From the NCBI GenBank assembly GCA_963788655.1, contig CAWBHS010000038.1, positions 160,001 through 224,000 on the forward strand: 64,000 bases of DNA. Direction: 5' to 3'. Origin of the DNA: an uncultured Verrucomicrobiae bacterium (GTDB lineage: Bacteria > Verrucomicrobiota > Verrucomicrobiia > Limisphaerales > JAFGQR01). Of this stretch, positions 49,497-61,042 are shown one piece after another; within the stretch, counting starts at the first letter, position 1; the number at the start of each line of letters is the position of its first letter. The notes below the pieces were generated by a model. The model worked only from the letters and a program-made list of their open reading frames with translations. It searched no databases and was not told the origin of the DNA. The position numbers were made by a program, and so were the translations under genes.

Positions 49497-52334
49497 TCAG
49501 TTTGTTCGTTTATTGGTAATACCACCCACGTCAACCCGGGAGATGGGTTGTCCGTCCGCATCCAGACGAAGCACGGTAACGAACGCGGTGGTCGTCGTTC
49601 CGGCAAAACCAGTTGTTGCGCCTGGTCTGCCGTCGAACATGGGATCGTTGCGGATGATGATTACGTCGCTGCCCCCATCCATGCGCTGGACGCGAACGCC
49701 AGTGGCGGGGATGGGCCCGCTGGTCGTCAGTGGCTCGATCGACTTCACGAGGTCAATCTCCTGGTAGGGATCGATGAGGCAGACAAACGTGGCGTCGTTC
49801 CCCGTCTGACGGAGAATGGCTTGCTGGCGATCGCCCGGAACGTTGCCGGTGAACACCTTCATACCGGGAGCGGGCCGGACCCAGGTTTTGACTTCAGTGG
49901 CCGGGTGACCGTGGCGTTCATTGGGCGCTGCCGCGTCGGGATTGGGTTTGGTTGCGTTTCGCGACCAAATGCCGGTCCATTGGCCCGGCACTGGTTGGGG
50001 GCCGATGGCTAGAACATTGCGGTACCCCGGCGTGGTATCGGCCATGGGCCGAAGGGTGGCCCGGTCGATGCCTTGCATCCGGTCGAGCTGGCCGCGGAAA
50101 CAGAGCGGGTAATCGAACACGTGCTGCGCCGGACCCCAGGCCCGATAGACATCGAGGAGGTACCCGGGCATTTGGATAACGGTTCGGTCCAGCGCCACTC
50201 CGGCGTAAGCGCCCGCCGCCTGGGCCCGTATCACCTTCACGCCGCCTTCGTCCGCGAAGCAAATCAGCCGACCCGAAGTGGGATTCTGCGAATGCTCGTC
50301 AATGCTCAAGGTCCAGTGGGCAATGCTGGTCTTGGTCCAGTTGGCATGCCGGTCGTCTTCGTAACGGAAAAACTGCGGTTCACCCGCAAGTTCGTCACCG
50401 TCGGCGAACAGGATGAGGTTGAGTTTATCGTAGTGGCCATGGACGCCTCCGTGCGGGCCGTAGTCCATCAGGAGAAAGGTTTCGCCGCCGGCGTCCTGGC
50501 CGCGGAGGATGGCATAGCCCAACTTGTCGAAAACGAGCGAGCGTTGGCCCTTTACGGGCACTTCGGGCAGCGGTTCGTAAATTCGGGTGGGGAAGTAGCA
50601 GGCGGGCGATTGATGGAGCTGCCGGGGCGTCTGGTTGATGGTGTGGGCATAGTTCGGATCACCATAGCGCAAATAGGCGTAGTCGAACGCCATTGCCGTC
50701 CATCCGCTGCCCACTGGGGCGCGGCTGGAATCGTTGATGCCCGGGCTGGTGCCATCGGGATACGCGTAGGCAAATTCGGAGTCGAAGAGATTTTTGAACG
50801 CGTTCGTTTTGTAGCTCCACAGGTCAATGCCTTTGCACGCCAGCGCCTCGAGCCCGCCAACCATGGCGTGCCGGGCGAATTGCTGGTAACCGATGGCGCC
50901 TTCGCCCCACATGCCGTCCTCCCCAATGCCGTTTTCGAGCATGTACTTCAACCCGTCGGCGCCCACGTCGATCCAGTCCTGATCTCCGAGCACACTGCCG
51001 CCCTGAACGAAGGCCAGATTGTAAAAAGCCGTCCAGTTGCCCAGCGCGCCCGAGCGCGTTTTCTTCGGCGCCGGATCGGTCCGCCAATTGGGATTCGCTT
51101 TCGTTTTGGCGGCGACCGTTTCGGCTGCCGGCGTCTTCCGGTTGATGAACGTGAGGGCACACCGGATGAGGTCTCGCTCAATGAGCGTTCGGTCGGCGGC
51201 GGAAAACGCCTTGCTGTCCGCGGTCAAATCGTAAGCCTGAATGAGCGGGATCAACCACATGGCTTCGCTCAAACGTTGGGCCATCACTTTCGAGGTGTCG
51301 CTGCCGTTGACACCTTTGTGTTCCTGGTAATCGTTGGGATAGAGGCGGGCGTAACCGACCAGGATTTCGCGCACGCGTTCCGCATATTTCCGGTCCCCAG
51401 TAATGCGGTAAGCGTAACCGCAAATACCGGCTTGTTTCGAAAGGGCGTCATGGGCTTGGGCCGCCGCATCGCCGCGGCTCTTGATCTGCGCAGGCATCTT
51501 CGGATCCGGATGAATGACGGGATGGTCCAGGTATTGGTCGGCGCTCGCAATGATTCCGTCGAGCACGGGCTGGCCGCGCGGACTTTGGCGCATCCTGGCA
51601 AACAGCGTCTGCCATCCCTCGGCCGTCAGGTAAATGCCCGGTCGCTCTTCCAACGGAATGGGCTTCGGCAACGTGACGGCAACCTCCGAGTAATCGTTGC
51701 GCGGCGGCCGACTGCGGATGTCGCGCGGCAGATCCGGATTGAAGTTCGGAACCGTGAGATACGGCGCCAAGTCGGCCGAAGTTACCACCTCGATCTCGCC
51801 GAAACCACCCCACCCGCATGGCTGACCGTTCTTCATTAGGCCCCCCGGATGATTGTTCCGGACAGTGACTTCGATCCAACTCGCTTTCCGTCCGCCCAGA
51901 TCCAGCGTCTGGCGCGGCTTGGGCTGACCGCGTTTCGCGGGCTCCTTGGCCAGTGTCTTCGCAAACGTGGTGCCATCGGACAGCTTGACTTCGACGTCGC
52001 AGGGGCACTGTTCCGAGGCGTAGTCACTGTCAATGAAATGAATCGCATCGAGCGACAATTCAGCGACCAGATCGATGTGGAACCGATACGGGGCGCCGGT
52101 GATGACCTGCCGCGAGTGAACATTGCCGTCCACCACGTCCGGCGGGAAGGTCTGGCGATCCTTGATCACCTTTTCGTCCAGCAGTTCGAGGCGAATCCGC
52201 CCGCCGTTATCCAGCCGGGCGGCGTTGTGGGCCTGGATGTCCCGATCCGCCTGGCGCGGATCCACCCGGTTTGGCGCTGCCCAGACGGAACCGCCAATCA
52301 TCAACAAAGCAAAGAACGTTACACGTGTCATCAT
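49497..52334 (-). CDS. Secreted alginate lyase / heparinase II/III-family polysaccharide lyase
   Basis: Signal MMTRVTFFALLMIGG; QRLSEAMW, DGMWGEG..GY, PDGTSPGIND, YGPHGGVHGHYDKL. Confidence 0.82.
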   Translation of the reverse strand: MMTRVTFFALLMIGGSVWAAPNRVDPRQADRDIQAHNAARLDNGGRIRLELLDEKVIKDRQTFPPDVVDGNVHSRQVITGAPYRFHIDLVAELSLDAIHFIDSDYASEQCPCDVEVKLSDGTTFAKTLAKEPAKRGQPKPRQTLDLGGRKASWIEVTVRNNHPGGLMKNGQPCGWGGFGEIEVVTSADLAPYLTVPNFNPDLPRDIRSRPPRNDYSEVAVTLPKPIPLEERPGIYLTAEGWQTLFARMRQSPRGQPVLDGIIASADQYLDHPVIHPDPKMPAQIKSRGDAAAQAHDALSKQAGICGYAYRITGDRKYAERVREILVGYARLYPNDYQEHKGVNGSDTSKVMAQRLSEAMWLIPLIQAYDLTADSKAFSAADRTLIERDLIRCALTFINRKTPAAETVAAKTKANPNWRTDPAPKKTRSGALGNWTAFYNLAFVQGGSVLGDQDWIDVGADGLKYMLENGIGEDGMWGEGAIGYQQFARHAMVGGLEALACKGIDLWSYKTNAFKNLFDSEFAYAYPDGTSPGINDSSRAPVGSGWTAMAFDYAYLRYGDPNYAHTINQTPRQLHQSPACYFPTRIYEPLPEVPVKGQRSLVFDKLGYAILRGQDAGGETFLLMDYGPHGGVHGHYDKLNLILFADGDELAGEPQFFRYEDDRHANWTKTSIAHWTLSIDEHSQNPTSGRLICFADEGGVKVIRAQAAGAYAGVALDRTVIQMPGYLLDVYRAWGPAQHVFDYPLCFRGQLDRMQGIDRATLRPMADTTPGYRNVLAIGPQPVPGQWTGIWSRNATKPNPDAAAPNERHGHPATEVKTWVRPAPGMKVFTGNVPGDRQQAILRQTGNDATFVCLIDPYQEIDLVKSIEPLTTSGPIPATGVRVQRMDGGSDVIIIRNDPMFDGRPGATTGFAGTTTTAFVTVLRLDADGQPISRVDVGGITNKRTN

Positions 52335-52499
52335 GGTTTCAGGAAATACCTTAAGGGCGGCGCTATTTAAGTTAAAGTCGAAAACGATGCTTTGTCCAAA
52401 ACCGCCCGGCCCGCCCGCATTAACTTGCTGCCGCAGCCCCTCAAGAAATGGCCAAGGATCAATGCTCCTTGACCAGTCCCCCATCGGCCAGAAGAACGC

Positions 52500-52673
52500 A
52501 GCCCGAACCGCCCCGGCACTGGGTTTCAAGGGAGAAAGTCCGCGCGCGATTTCGTACGCGTTCAGGAAGCGCAGGCACTTCACTTCCTTGGGCAGATACT
52601 CCTTCGCGAACGTGGTCTTCCCCGCGCCGTTGGAACCGGCAATCAAATAGATCGTTGGAGGCTGTGCGGGCAT
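52500..52673 (-). pseudogene. Zeta-toxin-like/AAA ATPase, N-terminal fragment
   Basis: IAGSNGAGKTTFA..FLNA.EIARGLSP; truncated after ~58 aa. Confidence 0.7.
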
Positions 52674-55513: not shown

Positions 55514-57563
55514 ATGAAAAACGCTCTCCTCGCGCCAACAGCCATTCTACTTAGTTGCCTCACCATCCAAGCCACCGATTTTTACGTGGCCCGGGACGGC
55601 AAGGATACCCAACCCGGCACTGCCGACCAACCGTTTGCCACGCTCACCCGTGCGCGGGACGCCATCCGCCAACTCAAGCAAGCTGGACCACTCCCACAGC
55701 CCGTGACCGTCCACGTGCGCGGCGGAACCTACTATCTGGCGCAACCAGTCACATTCACGCGCGAGGATTCAGGCACCGCGAAGGCGCCGATTGCCTACGC
55801 TGCCGAACGCGGATCATCTGTGCGCCTGACGGGCGGGCGGGAAATCACTGGTTGGCGTCCAGTAACCGATCCGGTGGTGCGGCAGCGGTTGCCGGCGGAA
55901 GCTCGTGACCATGTGCGGGTGGCCGATTTGCGGGCGCAAGGCATCACCGATTTCGGCAAGCTTAGCGTACGCGGCTTTGGCGCGGGAAGCCCGCCTGCCG
56001 AAGCCGAATTGTTTTATGACGATGATCCGATGACCCTGGCCCGATGGCCGAATGAAGGATTTCGGGGCGCGAAGTCCAAAGAGAGCGATCGTACCGATTG
56101 TCGTGGATACGGATCGCGTGGCCCGCTGGACGGCGGAAACCGAGCCGTGGGTGTTTGCCTATTGGCACCATGATTGGGCGGAACTTTACGAACCGCTCGC
56201 CGGGGTGGATGCAACGAAACACGCTTTGTTGCGAACCGCAAAAGTCCGGCCGGCTTATGGAGTTACCCCAAGCCGCGCCCGTTGGTACGCCTTCAACTTG
56301 TTGGCGGAACTCGATCGTCCCGGCGAGTATTATCTCGACCGCGCCAAAGGCTTGCTCTATTTCTGGCCGCCCCGTTCCGGTGGCCATGCTGTGCTCTCGT
56401 TGACGGATCGGTTGGTTGACGCCAACGAGTTGTCCCACGTGACCTTCCAAGGATTTACCCTTGAAGCTTGCCGCGGTACCGCGTTGACCCTCCACAGCAG
56501 TGCCGATTGCCACGTGGTCGGTTGCACGATTCGCAATACCGGTAAGCAAGCCGTGCAGGTTTCCGGAGGCGAACGGGACGAGGTTTATGGATGTGACATT
56601 TACTTCACCGGTGAAGGCGGCATTACCATGAGCGGCGGTGACCGGCCCACACTCGCGCCTGCCCACCACAACGCCGAGAACAACCACGTCCACCATTACG
56701 CCCGTCGCGCGCGCACGTACAAATGCGCCATCAGCGTGAGCGGGGTGGGCAATCGCATTGCGCACAACCTCATTCACGACGGTCCTCACATGGCGTTGTC
56801 CGCCAGCGGCAACGACCACGTGGTCGAATTCAATGAAGTCCACAACGTGGTCGAAGACAGCGGCGATGCCGGCGCGTTTTATGTGGGACGGGACTGGACG
56901 CAGCGCGGCAACATTCTGCGTTATAATTATTGGCACCACATTCTCGGCTCGACCGGTTATGGGGGCATGACCATTTACCTCGACGACCAACATTGCGGCT
57001 ACACGATTTATGGCAATCTCTTCGAGCGTTGCATGCAGGCGGTGTTCATTGGCGGCGGCGATGACAACCTGGTGACCAATAACGTGTTCATCGATTGCCG
57101 CAAGGCCGCCCACCTCGACAACCGCGGGATGGGTTGGCAAAAGCAAGCCACGGACGATCCCAAGGGCACTCTGCGTACCCGTTTGCAGGCCATGCCCTAC
57201 ACCAATGCCCTGTGGCGGTCCCGTTACCCGACCTTGGTCAACATCCTCCAGGACGATCCGGGCGTGCCGAAGCGGAACGTCTTCGCCGGCAACATCAGCG
57301 CCGGCGGCACATGGGACGACATTAATCGCTCGATTCGCCAGTTCCAAACCGTCACCAACAACCTGGTGTTAGACGACAAAAACTGGGTCCGCATCGTGCG
57401 AGATGCCGCGGGCCGGATGGAACGTTTGGAATTCAAGGATCCGGCGGCTGTGCGCGCCATGGGTTTCGTGCCGTTGCCAGTCGAGAAAATGGGCCTGTAT
57501 GCCGATCCGCGCCGCCCCAGTTGGCCGGTGGCCCATGAAGTCCGGCCGGTGAACTTGCCCTGA
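55514..57563 (+). CDS. Secreted right-handed beta-helix protein, frameshift near 56080
   Basis: FYVARDGKD..GTADQPFATLTRARDA, LARWPN, ELDRPGEYYLD, DAGAFY, IYLDD. Confidence 0.85.
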
Positions 57564-58012: not shown

Positions 58013-60319
58013 ATGAGAACAACCTGCCTTCGATTCATCTTGGGGGTAATGGGCTGGAGCGTGTTGACGGCGGCACACGCGGGCAATGTCATTCTCCTTA
58101 TTGGCGACGGCATGGGTTTTGAGCAGGTGAAAGCCGCGCGGGTTTATGCGGCCTCACCACTGTCATTTGAAGCGTTGCCTTTCCAAGGGGAGGTTACCAC
58201 CGCTTCCTCCAATGCTACCATAACCGACTCGGCGGCCGCAGCGACGGCCATGGCGACGGGAGTCAAAGTCAATAACGGTGTCGTTAGCCTGGCCTTGCCA
58301 GGAGACGGCAGTGAATTGGAAACGTTGGTCGAGTATTATAAAGCCCGCGGCCGAACAGTGGGGCTGGTAACGACGACCTACATCACCCACGCCACCCCGG
58401 CTTGCTTTGGGGCGCATGAAACAAGCCGCAATAATTACAGCGCGATTGCCGACGATTATTTGACGCAAACAATACCCAACGTGCTGTTCGGCGGCGGCGC
58501 CAATGGGATGAGCGTCAGCGCCGCTGAGAACGCCGGCTACGTGGTGGCAACGACCACAGCTTCGTTTGACGGCTTGGATACGACTGCCGATCTCCTTTCG
58601 GCACAATTCGGAACCACTGACCTGCCTTACGAATACGACTATCTTGGTGAGGAGTATCCATATCCTCATCTGGCAAACATGGTTACCGTGGCCTTGGATG
58701 CTTTGGATAATGATCCGGATGGCTTCTTCCTGATGGTTGAAGGGGGGAACATCGACCATGCATGCCATGCGAACAATCTTCGCCGGGCGGTTCACGAGAC
58801 CTTGGCGTTTTCCGACGCGGTGCAGACAGCCCTGGATTGGGCAGCCGGCCGTGATGACACGTTGATCATGGTGACTGCCGATCATGAAACGGGCGGATTA
58901 ACGGTGTCGGACCAAGTGGATTCGGACGGCTATCCGATCGTCAGTTGGACTACTGGCGGTCATACTGGAGTGAATGTTCCGGTTTATGCCTGGGGTCAGG
59001 ATGCCGCATTGGTTGCGGGTGTCCTGGACAACACGGAAATCAACGCGGTGTGTAAGGCCCAAGTCACAGCGGTTTCCCTTGCCGGAGCGGTTCATTACTA
59101 TCCGGGTACGACGGCCATCGCGGATGCGACGGTGGCGCTGAGTGGCGACGGTTCTCAAAGCACTGTGAGCGAAAGCGATGGATCGTATGGTTTCCGCGTG
59201 CTGCCAGAACGGAATTACCGCGTGACGCCGAACGCCGTCGTTGAAGCGACGGCAAACCGGGGTGTGGACACCATGGATATCATTGCGATCCGCAAACATC
59301 TCCTTGGCCATGCGTACTTTGATTCGGCATACCAGACCATTGCGGCGGATGTCGATGGTTCCGAAGAAGTCGATACGCTGGACATCGTTTACGTGCGCAA
59401 GTTGATTCTCGGGAAGATCACCTCGTTTCCCGCCGGCCGGTGGCAGTTTGTCCCTTCGGATTATCCCTTCAGCAGTTCATCCCAACCGTGGCCCTTTCCC
59501 AACATGCGCGACTATTCCCTGCTGACGGAAGACACCGCCGACCAGGATTTCGTCGCGATGAAATTGGGCGACGTTGACGGCACTTGGGTCGGTGGATCAT
59601 CGGGCTTTGCGCCGGCGTTGGCAGGAGCCCAGGGACAAACGACAACTGGGGATGCAACCGAGTCGTGGGTGACATTTTCGATGGGCCAACAAACCGCTTT
59701 ACCAGGTCAGACGGTGACCATTCCGGTAGCCGTCGGTGGGTTTCGCGAGGTGAACGGTGTTCAATTTACGCTGGAATGGGATCCCGCTGTCCTTGAGTTT
59801 GCAACGGTCGGCGAGTTCGGGTTGCCCGGCTTGGGCGCTGGAAATTTCAATCCGCAGACCGTTCAAGGCAGACTGGCGTTTTGTTGGGAAGATCCCGCCG
59901 CCGGGAGCCAAACGTTGGACCGCAAGACTGTTTTGTTTGTCATTCAATTTGCGATCGTCGGCAAACCGGGTACGGCATCCGCGCTAGAGTTTGCAGATGT
60001 TCCCACGCCCCGAAAGGCGATCGCCAATTACCAAACAGCTTTGGCGGGCTGGCAGAATGGCATCGTCGAAGTGGGATTAGCTACGGAGTTGCCACCCGGC
60101 ACCTGCCGGGTGCGCGCTGAATCCGCCGGCGGCTACCGGATTGCGTTTGCCGGTGATCCCGAAGAAAGCTACGTCATCCAGTGCGCGGACCGACTGAACG
60201 ATCCGAACTGGCGGGCATTGGCTACCGTCACAACCGATCAACTTGGTTTCGCGGAGTATCTGGACGTGCCGGCAACCACGACCGCAACCCGATTTTACCG
60301 TCTTGTGAAACTGCCATAG
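58013..60319 (+). CDS. Alkaline phosphatase with Ig-like linker, dockerin-like module, cohesin-like module and C-terminal RFYRL domain
   Basis: ILLIGDGMG, TDSAAAATA (catalytic Ser), THATPA, MVEGGNIDHACH, VTADHETGG; dockerin-like GVDTMDIIAIRKHLLG / ADVDGSEEVDTLDIVYVRKLILG; cohesin-like PGQTVTIPVAV..VQFTLEWDPAVLEF. Confidence 0.88.
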   Translation: MRTTCLRFILGVMGWSVLTAAHAGNVILLIGDGMGFEQVKAARVYAASPLSFEALPFQGEVTTASSNATITDSAAAATAMATGVKVNNGVVSLALPGDGSELETLVEYYKARGRTVGLVTTTYITHATPACFGAHETSRNNYSAIADDYLTQTIPNVLFGGGANGMSVSAAENAGYVVATTTASFDGLDTTADLLSAQFGTTDLPYEYDYLGEEYPYPHLANMVTVALDALDNDPDGFFLMVEGGNIDHACHANNLRRAVHETLAFSDAVQTALDWAAGRDDTLIMVTADHETGGLTVSDQVDSDGYPIVSWTTGGHTGVNVPVYAWGQDAALVAGVLDNTEINAVCKAQVTAVSLAGAVHYYPGTTAIADATVALSGDGSQSTVSESDGSYGFRVLPERNYRVTPNAVVEATANRGVDTMDIIAIRKHLLGHAYFDSAYQTIAADVDGSEEVDTLDIVYVRKLILGKITSFPAGRWQFVPSDYPFSSSSQPWPFPNMRDYSLLTEDTADQDFVAMKLGDVDGTWVGGSSGFAPALAGAQGQTTTGDATESWVTFSMGQQTALPGQTVTIPVAVGGFREVNGVQFTLEWDPAVLEFATVGEFGLPGLGAGNFNPQTVQGRLAFCWEDPAAGSQTLDRKTVLFVIQFAIVGKPGTASALEFADVPTPRKAIANYQTALAGWQNGIVEVGLATELPPGTCRVRAESAGGYRIAFAGDPEESYVIQCADRLNDPNWRALATVTTDQLGFAEYLDVPATTTATRFYRLVKLP

Positions 60320-60439
60320 ACTGTCGAGTGCCCGAATTAACTGCAAATGCGACTTAAACGAACCATCTTGAAGCCGATTCCCAATGGATATTGCGACCGC
60401 CGCGGTTCTTTTCGTGTGGCAACCGACGAGTTTTAGACC

Positions 60440-61042
60440 GTGAAGACCATCAGTTCAGTTTTTTTGGCAATCATGGCAGTGGGAACGTTGTTGGCGCCTT
60501 CGGGGAAGGCGGCGTTGACGTTTTCCGCGAGCCAGGCAATCGTCGCTCCGGGCGATCCGGTGAACGTGGCCATTTCGGTTCAGGGGTTCAACGGCGTTCT
60601 GGCCATGCAGGGAAGTATCGCTTGGGACACCTCGCTCCTGACTTACGTTTCGGTGGACAATTTCGCGTCAGGTCTGAGCGGTTTGAACGAAACAAGCTTT
60701 GGTTTCCGGGACGACCACTTGACATACTCTTGGAACGATTCGGAGGACATGGGTGTTTCCATTCCCGATGAAACCGTGCTATTCACGATTCAATTGGCTG
60801 CCGGTTCCAGTCCCGGCAGCACCATGATCACGTTCGACGATTCTCCCCTCACCAGTTGGGCTGCCGATCAGGATTTGAACAAAACCTATTTCGCGGTAGA
60901 TGCTCTGCCGGGAAGCGTCACCGTCGTTCCCGAGCCCGTCAGCAGTGCGTTGGGTATCTTCGGAGGACTGGCGGTATGCGTTCAGGTGGTTCGTTGGCTC
61001 AGCCGCGCAAAGCATCGCCGCGGCAATTGCGGTTGCGGCTGA
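60440..61042 (+). CDS. Cohesin-like domain protein with a PEP-CTERM sorting signal
   Basis: Signal peptide; PGDPVNVAISV..MQGSIAWDTSLLTY..VLFTIQL; C-terminal VPEP + TM + basic tail RWLSRAKHRR. Confidence 0.82.
   Translation: MKTISSVFLAIMAVGTLLAPSGKAALTFSASQAIVAPGDPVNVAISVQGFNGVLAMQGSIAWDTSLLTYVSVDNFASGLSGLNETSFGFRDDHLTYSWNDSEDMGVSIPDETVLFTIQLAAGSSPGSTMITFDDSPLTSWAADQDLNKTYFAVDALPGSVTVVPEPVSSALGIFGGLAVCVQVVRWLSRAKHRRGNCGCG

What the first reader, a model, noticed from the sequence alone, without database searches (positions are those of the whole stretch)
58013..61042. Candidate cellulosome-like surface display system for a phosphatase: AP-dockerin-cohesin plus cohesin-PEP-CTERM anchor
Seen: a secreted alkaline phosphatase carries a duplicated dockerin-like motif and then a cohesin-like beta-sandwich. 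The next gene (120 bp downstream, same strand) is essentially signal + one cohesin-like domain + VPEP-TM-basic tail. Known: cohesin-dockerin pairs assemble cellulosomes in Firmicutes, where anchoring uses SLH or sortase; PEP-CTERM is the exosortase-processed anchor of Gram-negative bacteria. Inference: the small protein is a minimal anchoring scaffoldin. Because the enzyme has both partners, it could chain head-to-tail into a cell-tethered phosphatase polymer for organic-phosphate scavenging.
Basis: partly seen in the sequence, partly recalled or inferred. Interest (0 to 1): 0.88.

Follow-up and report, generated by a model that had tools for sequence, protein, structure and literature searches.

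The report
Cohesin-dockerin tether for secreted phosphatase
A secreted phosphatase carries the same plug-and-socket domains that build cellulosomes, and the next gene encodes a lone socket with a Gram-negative surface-sorting tail, one example of a recurring two-gene docking system for exported proteins whose binding has not been measured.

Summary
Gene 1 (58013-60319) encodes a signal peptide, an intact PhoA, a dockerin, a type I-fold cohesin and an unnoticed 70-aa C-terminal 'FYR' domain. Gene 2 (60440-61042) encodes signal, cohesin and a PEP-CTERM-like tail; the genome has two exosortases.

The dockerin is unusual: in the model it is inserted into a transthyretin-like sandwich, and it looks circularly permuted.

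The pairing is conserved. In Bacteroidota and Verrucomicrobiota, 40 of 101 such dockerin genes precede a gene that starts with 1-7 cohesins. Cohesin-PEP-CTERM genes flank a dockerin gene in 4 of 5 loci with context.

The phosphatase is an incidental passenger; most relatives carry adhesin repeats. Covariation, a confident docked model and linker geometry point to the enzyme's OWN cohesin as the dockerin's main partner, probably in cis. Binding of the anchor cohesin has only weak support.

Best reading: a self-clasped docking module captured by a PEP-CTERM cohesin through exchange. Head-to-tail polymerisation is possible but not shown. This is a new variant of non-cellulosomal cohesin-dockerin systems; no paper with both cohesin and PEP-CTERM was found in the library searched.

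The parts
58013..58081 (+). Sec-type signal peptide of the phosphatase (residues 1-23)
   Evidence: read from the sequence; no signal-peptide predictor was run
58082..59062 (+). PhoA-family alkaline phosphatase domain, compact type; D32, S73, H126/T128, R139, E243, D248/H249, H252, D290/H291, H317 present
   Evidence: PF00245 E 2e-72; PDB phosphatases E 2e-45, colinear with the compact 2iuc enzyme; motif positions; mapping to the E. coli active site is recalled
59069..59563 (+). Transthyretin-like/CnaB beta-sandwich that hosts the dockerin; its last strand (residues 513-517) comes after the dockerin
   Evidence: model pLDDT 96.4; 5aq0_B 82 of 82 residues aligned over model 2-167, Z 6.8, rmsd 2.2; 1qmu_A Z 7.4; these Z values are middling
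59258..59437 (+). Dockerin core: three helices, two repeats; lacks the first half of calcium loop 1
   Evidence: PF00404 profile positions 9-57 only; aligns to 4dh2_D from its residue 14; helices
59567..59581 (+). Displaced GDVDG motif, the inferred first half of calcium loop 1 (circular permutation)
   Evidence: G167 and D168 invariant in 91 rows; G167 invariant and D168 at least 90% in 98 rows; calcium binding itself is inferred
59666..60082 (+). The enzyme's own cohesin, type I fold, after a flexible linker of about 30 residues
60113..60319 (+). C-terminal 'FYR' domain, about 70 aa, candidate export or retention signal; sits where Bacteroidota relatives carry the T9SS C-terminal domain
   Evidence: 165 of 186 profile hits in this genome are C-terminal; Atlas clusters at 0.96 with no Pfam family, commonest taxon Verrucomicrobiota; PF18962 at that position in Bacteroidota relatives
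60440..60511 (+). Signal peptide of the small protein
   Evidence: read from the sequence
60512..60925 (+). Cohesin of the small protein; keeps the conserved face residue Q34
   Evidence: PF00963 29.4 bits; 32% identical to the enzyme's cohesin; column table
60926..61042 (+). PEP-CTERM-like tail: VPEP, hydrophobic helix, basic cluster
   Evidence: VPEP invariant in 20 aligned family rows; best non-seed hit (E 3.8e-4) of a profile built from 8 other PEP tails of this genome; curated HMMs not met

Best explanation
A two-gene, non-cellulosomal cohesin-dockerin tethering module. SHOWN (sequence and models): both proteins have signal peptides; the enzyme ends in sandwich-with-inserted-dockerin, cohesin and FYR domain; the partner is one cohesin on a PEP-CTERM-like tail; the pairing recurs across two phyla with changing passengers. 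INFERRED: (1) the permuted dockerin binds its own cohesin in cis through repeat 1, so the free protein is self-clasped; (2) the small protein is processed by an exosortase and fixed in the envelope; (3) its cohesin competes for the same dockerin face and captures the enzyme by exchange, which holds phosphatase activity at the cell surface and leaves the enzyme's own cohesin free for a further dockerin. PhoA is one interchangeable cargo of a general system for linking exported proteins.
For: Pairing: 40 of 101 dockerin genes with downstream room are followed by a gene starting with signal + cohesin (30 of 87 clusters at 90% identity), against 12 of 349 other genes in the same loci. Partners carry 1, 3 or 7 tandem N-terminal cohesins. 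Cohesin-PEP-CTERM genes were found in 4 of 401 same-order genomes, all among the 42 of 401 with this dockerin; they are adjacent to it in G000, G156, G194 and L027, in tandem or convergent orientation. Own-cohesin binding: single-chain model pTM 0.91 despite a low-confidence linker; top inter-domain couplings Doc17-Coh77 (rank 2 overall), Doc10-Coh75 and Doc9-Coh119; enrichment on the binding face p 0.0002; associations hold in each phylum separately; Q34 invariant in 54 of 54 and 72 of 72 own cohesins. Cis geometry: cohesin residues 3 and 5 couple with 120 and 33, next to the 32/34/75/119 patch, and the linker is 12-14 residues in 67 of 76 Bacteroidota cases. Trans binding in the family: proteins that end at the dockerin with no own cohesin exist (L091 x3, L094, L096, L067), and L159 is followed by a cohesin-first gene. 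Anchor binding: complex score 0.49, best of 3 controls 0.02, runs agree in at least 96% of contacts, partner pLDDT at least 90; the mark was reached by 116 of 157 solved complexes and 2 of 215 mismatches, but at 0.60 or under by only 18 of the 157 and by both mismatches, and cohesin-dockerin is a textbook pair that may pass from memory. Neighbour cohesins lack E119 in 7 of 7 cases where dockerin position 9 is Asp, as here (about 3 lineages).
Against: No face-wide covariation between dockerin and neighbour cohesin (p 0.42, 54 pairs), whereas 53 of the same dockerins show it with their own cohesin (p 0.007). Tree-aware pair tests reach significance for neither own nor neighbour cohesins (best median p 0.125; too few supported pairs). 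61 of 101 dockerin genes have no such neighbour. A cis partner has a large concentration advantage, so exchange may not occur. Two of the four adjacent PEP cohesins have Asn instead of Q34. The tail misses the curated PEP-CTERM models. The genome holds other dockerin types that could be the true ligand.
Confidence: 0.5

Rival explanations
1. Pure intramolecular clasp. The dockerin and its own cohesin form a closed, stabilising staple near the C-terminus of exported proteins. The neighbouring cohesin-PEP-CTERM protein binds another dockerin, or none, and sits there through co-transfer or local duplication.
For: Covariation is with the own cohesin and not, face-wide, with the neighbour. 100 of 111 dockerin genes keep a cohesin directly behind. 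Short fixed linker and end-to-end geometry. In the cohesin tree a few neighbour cohesins group with the cohesin next door (L028, L029, L095; supports 84-96, short alignment). Three other PF00404 dockerin ORFs and two cohesin-dockerin-cohesin giants exist in the genome.
Against: It does not explain 3- and 7-cohesin partners placed directly downstream, dockerin-terminal proteins without a cohesin, adjacency in both orientations, or the loss of E119 in both cohesins here.
Confidence: 0.25
2. Head-to-tail polymer. The dockerin of one chain binds the cohesin of the next; the PEP-CTERM cohesin nucleates and anchors a chain, which branches if PhoA dimerises.
For: Covariation within one gene product cannot tell cis from homotypic trans. 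The repeats stay symmetric (T/M-R/K and T/L-R/K here; equivalent positions 10-45, 14-49 and 18-53 covary). Many relatives have a cohesin on both sides of the dockerin.
Against: The permutation puts the chain exit next to where a bound cohesin begins, which favours cis closure (inferred). The linker here is about 30 flexible residues and the single-chain model closes confidently. No direct evidence of polymers.
Confidence: 0.2
3. Relic or structural spacer domains that no longer bind anything.
For: The Pfam dockerin score is borderline; both cohesins here depart from the family at position 119.
Against: Invariant calcium ligands and Q34, interface covariation, a charge-complementary D9/K119 change seen in several lineages, and conserved pairing.
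Confidence: 0.05

Closest known systems
Type I cohesin-dockerin pairs of clostridial cellulosomes (A. cellulolyticus ScaB/ScaC, 4uyp, 5nrk; C. thermocellum OlpA/OlpC, 3ul4, 4dh2)
   Same: Cohesin fold (Z 17.4) and dockerin core; two symmetric repeats; a single-cohesin cell-anchored protein resembles OlpA/OlpC (role recalled; PDB titles seen).
   Different: Gram-negative host, no cellulases; PEP-CTERM-like, T9SS or FYR tails instead of SLH or sortase; dockerin inserted in a sandwich and apparently permuted; own cohesin attached behind it.
Archaeoglobus fulgidus non-cellulosomal cohesin/dockerin genes (PDB 2xdh; Bayer et al. 1999)
   Same: From recall: a protein with dockerin and cohesin in tandem next to a gene with a single cohesin. 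2xdh matches at Z 15.9; binding of archaeal pairs is stated in PMC9012536 (passage).
   Different: Archaeal. The gene layout is recalled, not checked. I know of no PEP-CTERM anchor or permuted dockerin there.
'Planctosome' of freshwater Planctomycetes (PMC6461901) and the cellulosome-like complex of Ca. Stygibacter (PMC8542988)
   Same: Genome-inferred cohesin-dockerin assemblies in Gram-negative bacteria; an adaptor with both dockerin and cohesin (planctosome); a scaffoldin with a C-terminal domain for surface attachment (Stygibacter) (passages).
   Different: Other phyla and anchors; the passages read do not mention PEP-CTERM, an inserted or permuted dockerin, or this two-gene layout.
X-dockerin dyads (type II CipA/ScaA, type III CttA)
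   Same: A beta-sandwich fixed to a dockerin; weak fold hits to 4u3s_B, 4wi0_B, 5m0y_B (E about 0.01).
   Different: There the X module precedes the dockerin (recalled); here the dockerin lies inside the sandwich and the cohesins are closest to type I.
PEP-CTERM/exosortase system (PMC1569441)
   Same: PEP motif, hydrophobic helix, basic cluster, N-terminal signal, exosortase in the genome (passages).
   Different: The tail is a divergent subtype below the curated models, and its passenger is a cohesin.

Membership tests
Cohesin (type I fold) | PF00963 above gathering score | tested here: met
   37.7 and 29.4 bits against 24.1
Cohesin (type I fold) | Nine-stranded jelly-roll matching solved cohesins | tested here: met
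   enzyme's cohesin Z 17.4, rmsd 1.9, 134 aligned; small protein by profile only, E 2e-14
Dockerin | PF00404 above gathering score | tested here: inconclusive
   20.3 bits, 25 bits (cut-off 22.9); several relatives pass, e.g. 31.6 and 35.6 bits
Dockerin | Three-helix fold with two repeats | tested here: met
   helices 68-78, 87-93, 103-113; 4dh2_D rmsd 1.9 over 60 residues, Z 5.3; 4uyq_B TM 0.68; profile E 1e-11
Dockerin | Two contiguous 12-residue calcium loops | tested here: not met
   loop 2 is complete; loop 1 lacks its first half in place (profile positions 9-57) and a conserved GDV[DN] follows about 100 residues later; read as a permutation
Dockerin | Calcium-dependent binding to a cohesin | not testable with these tools
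   indirect only: covariation, models
Cellulosome | Multi-cohesin scaffoldin with dockerin-bearing polysaccharidases in this genome | tested here: not met
   3 PF00963 matches in separate ORFs, at most two cohesins per protein seen, one dockerin of this family; the genome is 86% complete
PEP-CTERM/exosortase substrate | PEP motif + transmembrane helix + basic cluster at the C-terminus, N-terminal signal | tested here: met
PEP-CTERM/exosortase substrate | TIGR02595 or PF07589 match | tested here: not met
   not listed for this protein; one family member scores 17 bits against 20.7
PEP-CTERM/exosortase substrate | Exosortase with Cys/Arg/His residues in the genome | tested here: met
   two PF09721 hits, 157 and 145 bits, each with ACSG, NxxR and HxxxG motifs
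PEP-CTERM/exosortase substrate | Cleavage and surface location | not testable with these tools
   needs proteomics or fractionation
PhoA alkaline phosphatase | PF00245 and intact metal and catalytic residues | tested here: met
   residue roles recalled
T9SS cargo | PF18962 tail and SprA in the genome | tested here: inconclusive
   no match in this genome, but the controls did not ring either; the FYR domain has no Pfam or NCBIfam match

The most novel reading that the evidence does not exclude
A Gram-negative surface-assembly system built from self-capped subunits. Circular permutation lets each exported protein clasp its dockerin with its own cohesin; an anchored cohesin (PEP-CTERM in some Verrucomicrobiota, 3- to 7-cohesin T9SS scaffoldins in Bacteroidota) opens the clasp, the freed cohesin captures the next subunit, and chains or networks of adhesins and enzymes grow outward from the cell. 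Dockerin-terminal proteins without an export tail might even ride out on a cohesin partner.
Probability: 0.2. Interest if true: 0.85.

Novelty: new variant of a known kind. Interest (0 to 1): 0.62.

Why it matters
It extends cohesin-dockerin assembly to Gram-negative envelopes and links it to three different C-terminal tails (PEP-CTERM-like, T9SS, FYR). It gives a PEP-CTERM-type protein a concrete, testable ligand. It shows a natural dockerin architecture, inserted and apparently permuted, that HMM surveys score only marginally and so may under-count. Cultured carriers exist (records titled Sabulibacter ruber, Pontibacter aydingkolensis, Botryobacter ruber), the domains are small, and a phosphatase passenger gives an easy readout, so cis clasp, exchange and polymerisation can be tested directly. 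A self-capped, orthogonal docking pair could also serve enzyme-display engineering.

Tried and rejected
Single-sequence search with the small protein found only itself; a 4-row profile was needed to find the family. The search of cluster representatives was filled with multi-cohesin proteins and gave no context. Promoter and terminator scans were at chance level (1 against 1.9; 7 against 4.9 +/- 2.1), so the weak hairpin between the genes is not evidence. No sequencing run was listed, so there is no information on expression or co-transcription. T9SS searches were uninformative because the controls did not ring. Foldseek gave no match at E <= 0.001 for the sandwich-dockerin model. The cohesin tree is poorly resolved (83 of 220 branches open); own and free cohesins cluster but are not clean clades. 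Dockerin against the cohesin that precedes it (46 rows) gave no face-consistent couplings, but the depth is too low to conclude. Tree-aware pair tests were underpowered. The G170 cohesin-PEP gene lies about 150 bases from a contig end and shows no exact overlap with the contig that bears its dockerin gene, so adjacency is open. Phosphatase-specific system: rejected; the genome also has three PhoD matches and no PhoX match. Peer et al. 2009 was not held. Look-ups of earlier findings by relatives and by words returned nothing. No model coordinates were available, so contacts in the docked model were not inspected. Supplements were not read; domain lists there could hold this architecture.
Full report
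OBSERVATION. Gene 1 (58013-60319, +, 768 aa) and gene 2 (60440-61042, +, 200 aa from GTG) lie 120 bp apart. Gene 1 has PF00245 at E 2e-72, a weak carboxypeptidase-regulatory-like hit (357-415), a borderline PF00404 hit (417-466, profile positions 9-57) and PF00963 at 37.7 bits; gene 2 has PF00963 at 29.4 bits. The phosphatase motifs are all present (roles recalled from E. coli PhoA), and it is the only PhoA found in this 86%-complete genome. Gene 2 ends in VPEP, a hydrophobic stretch and a basic cluster. TIGR02595 and PF07589 do not list it, but it is the best non-seed hit of a profile made from eight other PEP tails of this genome (E 3.8e-4). Two exosortases with the expected motifs are present. 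The host looks verrucomicrobial: the Atlas clusters of its tail domain are mostly Verrucomicrobiota where known, and named loci with the same module and tail are mostly so titled.

A model of residues 353-528 (98 rows, pLDDT 96.4) aligns with transthyretin-like and CnaB sandwiches over residues 2-167 although those domains have only about 80 residues (5aq0_B 82 of 82 aligned, Z 6.8, rmsd 2.2). The dockerin is therefore inserted, and the strand after it completes the sandwich. The Z values are middling, but dozens of rows agree on the range. The dockerin aligns to 4dh2_D only from that chain's residue 14, and Pfam matches only from profile position 9. The missing GDVxG appears about 100 residues later and is among the most conserved motifs of the family. 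I read this as a circular permutation of calcium loop 1; calcium binding was not tested and no coordinates were available. The last 70 residues form a domain ending in FYR; an iterated profile gave 186 hits in this genome, 165 of them C-terminal. Bacteroidota relatives have the T9SS tail at that position, so it is a candidate export or retention signal (inference).

A FAMILY, NOT A ONE-OFF. The sandwich-dockerin-cohesin block was found in 77 genome loci (best 80 of 106 matches kept) and 20 metagenome loci, in Bacteroidota and Verrucomicrobiota, and in 42 of 401 same-order genomes. Of 111 dockerin genes, 100 have a cohesin directly behind. Of the 101 with downstream room, 40 are followed by a gene that begins with signal + cohesin (30 of 87 clusters at 90% identity), against 12 of 349 other genes in the same loci. 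By eye one of the 40 is a frameshift artefact (L118), one true case was missed (L093), and the convergent L027 was not counted. Partners carry one, three or seven tandem N-terminal cohesins. Passengers in 30 scanned proteins are mostly Ig, PKD, LamG, Kelch and LRR repeats, or subtilase; one dockerin-terminal protein is a metallophosphoesterase. PhoA occurs on the module only here, and none of 8 related PhoA loci in 201 genomes showed dockerin or cohesin in the DNA held.

COHESIN-PEP-CTERM. A 4-row profile returned 24 proteins. The 19 full family members aligned, plus L027, share an invariant VPEP; two weak hits are a more distant cohesin-PEP type. Genomic context exists for five. G000 and G194 are tandem and G156 and L027 convergent with a dockerin-cohesin-FYR gene. 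The G170 gene has an unrelated upstream neighbour and a contig end downstream, though that genome has the dockerin. All four found among the 401 genomes lie in dockerin-positive genomes (base rate 42 of 401). Limits: G156 and G194 share a genus, only 8 candidates per genome were scored, and the E cut-off favours this cohesin type.

WHO BINDS WHOM. The single-chain model of sandwich-dockerin-linker-cohesin has pTM 0.91 with a linker at pLDDT 51-60, which implies a confidently docked own cohesin, possibly from memory of solved complexes. Covariation on 148 pairs ranks Doc17-Coh77 second overall and Doc10-Coh75 and Doc9-Coh119 among the top nine inter-domain pairs. Positions 10, 11, 17 and 18 are the canonical recognition sites (recalled). 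Coupling on the binding face beats random column sets (p 0.0002 for repeat 1, 0.001 for repeat 2; the face was chosen) and holds within each phylum. Tree-aware pair tests point the same way but are not significant (best median p 0.125). Here D9 pairs with K119; all 12 Asp9 dockerins lack E119 in their own cohesin. Covariation on 1025 cohesins puts residues 32, 34, 73, 75 and 119 on one patch and the cohesin N-terminus beside 120 and 33. Since the permuted chain leaves the dockerin at loop 1, the attached cohesin starts next to its binding site; the linker is 12-14 residues in 67 of 76 Bacteroidota cases and 12-64 in Verrucomicrobiota. This favours a cis clasp (inference).

For neighbour cohesins there is no face-wide signal (p 0.42, 54 pairs), whereas 53 of the same dockerins show one with their own cohesin (p 0.007). 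Only the 9-119 pair carries over: E119 is absent in 7 of 7 neighbours of Asp9 dockerins and present in 32 of 47 others, from about three lineages. The complex prediction of the whole block with the small protein's cohesin gave weak support: 0.49 against a best control of 0.02, at least 96% contact agreement, partner pLDDT at least 90. The mark was reached by 116 of 157 solved complexes and 2 of 215 mismatches, but at 0.60 or under by only 18 of the 157 and by both mismatches; no interface was given, and this is a textbook pair. Trans binding somewhere in the family is implied by proteins that stop at the dockerin with no own cohesin or tail (L091 x3, L094, L096, L067, L159), L159 being followed by a cohesin-first gene.

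MECHANISM AND RIVALS. Most likely (0.5): exported, self-clasped cargo is captured by the anchored cohesin through exchange. Pure clasp with an unrelated or otherwise-engaged neighbour: 0.25. Head-to-tail polymer: 0.2. Relic: 0.05. Export, exosortase processing, surface location, binding and any role in phosphate scavenging are all inferred.

COMPARISON WITH WHAT IS KNOWN. It works like a single-cohesin anchoring scaffoldin with type I-like domains, but it is not a cellulosome. Non-cellulosomal pairs are known in archaea and other bacteria (PMC9012536, passages), in the planctosome, whose adaptor has both domains (PMC6461901, passages), and in Ca. Stygibacter (PMC8542988, passages). Dockerins and cohesins in rumen Bacteroidetes bins are reported (PMC6071333, passages). 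Binding modes: PMC12484212, section 3.1 and passages. PEP-CTERM definition: PMC1569441, passages. PMC11557425 mentions only one PVC organism (passages). The A. fulgidus layout is recalled; I saw only the reference title and the PDB entry title. Peer et al. 2009 was not held and may list such proteins. Searches for cohesin + dockerin + PEP-CTERM and for PEP-CTERM + cohesin found 0 papers. Dockerin + circular permutation + cohesin gave 5 listings and cohesin + dockerin + type IX secretion gave 10; I saw these as listings only, apart from PMC8542988, and none is by title about this system. The library lacks most subscription papers, and supplements were not read.

VERDICT. A real, conserved and apparently undescribed variant of non-cellulosomal cohesin-dockerin assembly. 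The phosphatase is incidental, the anchor role is plausible but weakly supported, and the polymer is unproven. Interest 0.62.

Noticed in passing
window 55514-57563 (+): A right-handed beta-helix gene (PF13229, GH141/Pel9A-like hits) is split into two overlapping ORFs of 219 and 503 aa, suggesting a frameshift near 56050-56170.
   Followed up: no
window 49497-52673 (-): An alginate-lyase/heparinase II-III ORF whose first ~110 codons look like the start of a small P-loop ATPase gene run into the lyase frame; the lyase probably starts at a later Met.
   Followed up: no
G000 C57:228718-232869, C88:187176-190781, C99:129069-135413: Three large FYR-type or giant proteins with a more distant cohesin type; two carry a different dockerin-like pair (DxAPRPxGNG) directly before a cohesin.
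   Followed up: partly
G000 whole genome: The FYR C-terminal domain occurs at the end of about 165 ORFs and has no Pfam or NCBIfam model; its partner machinery is unknown.
   Followed up: partly
L065:3039-16481: Cytophagales locus: a dockerin-cohesin-T9SS protein followed by a 2409-aa protein with seven tandem N-terminal cohesins and a T9SS tail, a true scaffoldin layout.
   Followed up: partly
L042, L051-L053, L057, L058, L063, L064, L066, L069, L070, L076, L078, L108, L110-L115: Recurrent Bacteroidota operon: giant dockerin-cohesin-CTD protein, sometimes a small one-cohesin-CTD gene, then in most cases a three-cohesin-CTD protein.
   Followed up: partly
L091:6234-12394, L094, L096, L067:4219-4830: Chitinophagales and Saprospiraceae proteins that end at the dockerin with no cohesin and no T9SS tail; one is a purple-acid-phosphatase-like metallophosphoesterase. 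They may depend on a cohesin partner for export or retention.
   Followed up: partly
P0023-P0171: 146 of 149 top cluster representatives carry three or more cohesins of this type and most lack this dockerin: a large pool of scaffoldin-like proteins without context.
   Followed up: no
P0193, P0194: A more distant cohesin-PEP-CTERM type with a more canonical tail; whether it has dockerin partners is unknown.
   Followed up: no
L127 (G074:C218), L129 (G178:C222): In-frame stops in or next to the dockerin-cohesin block (1 TGA, 1 TAG): broken genes or assembly errors.
   Followed up: no
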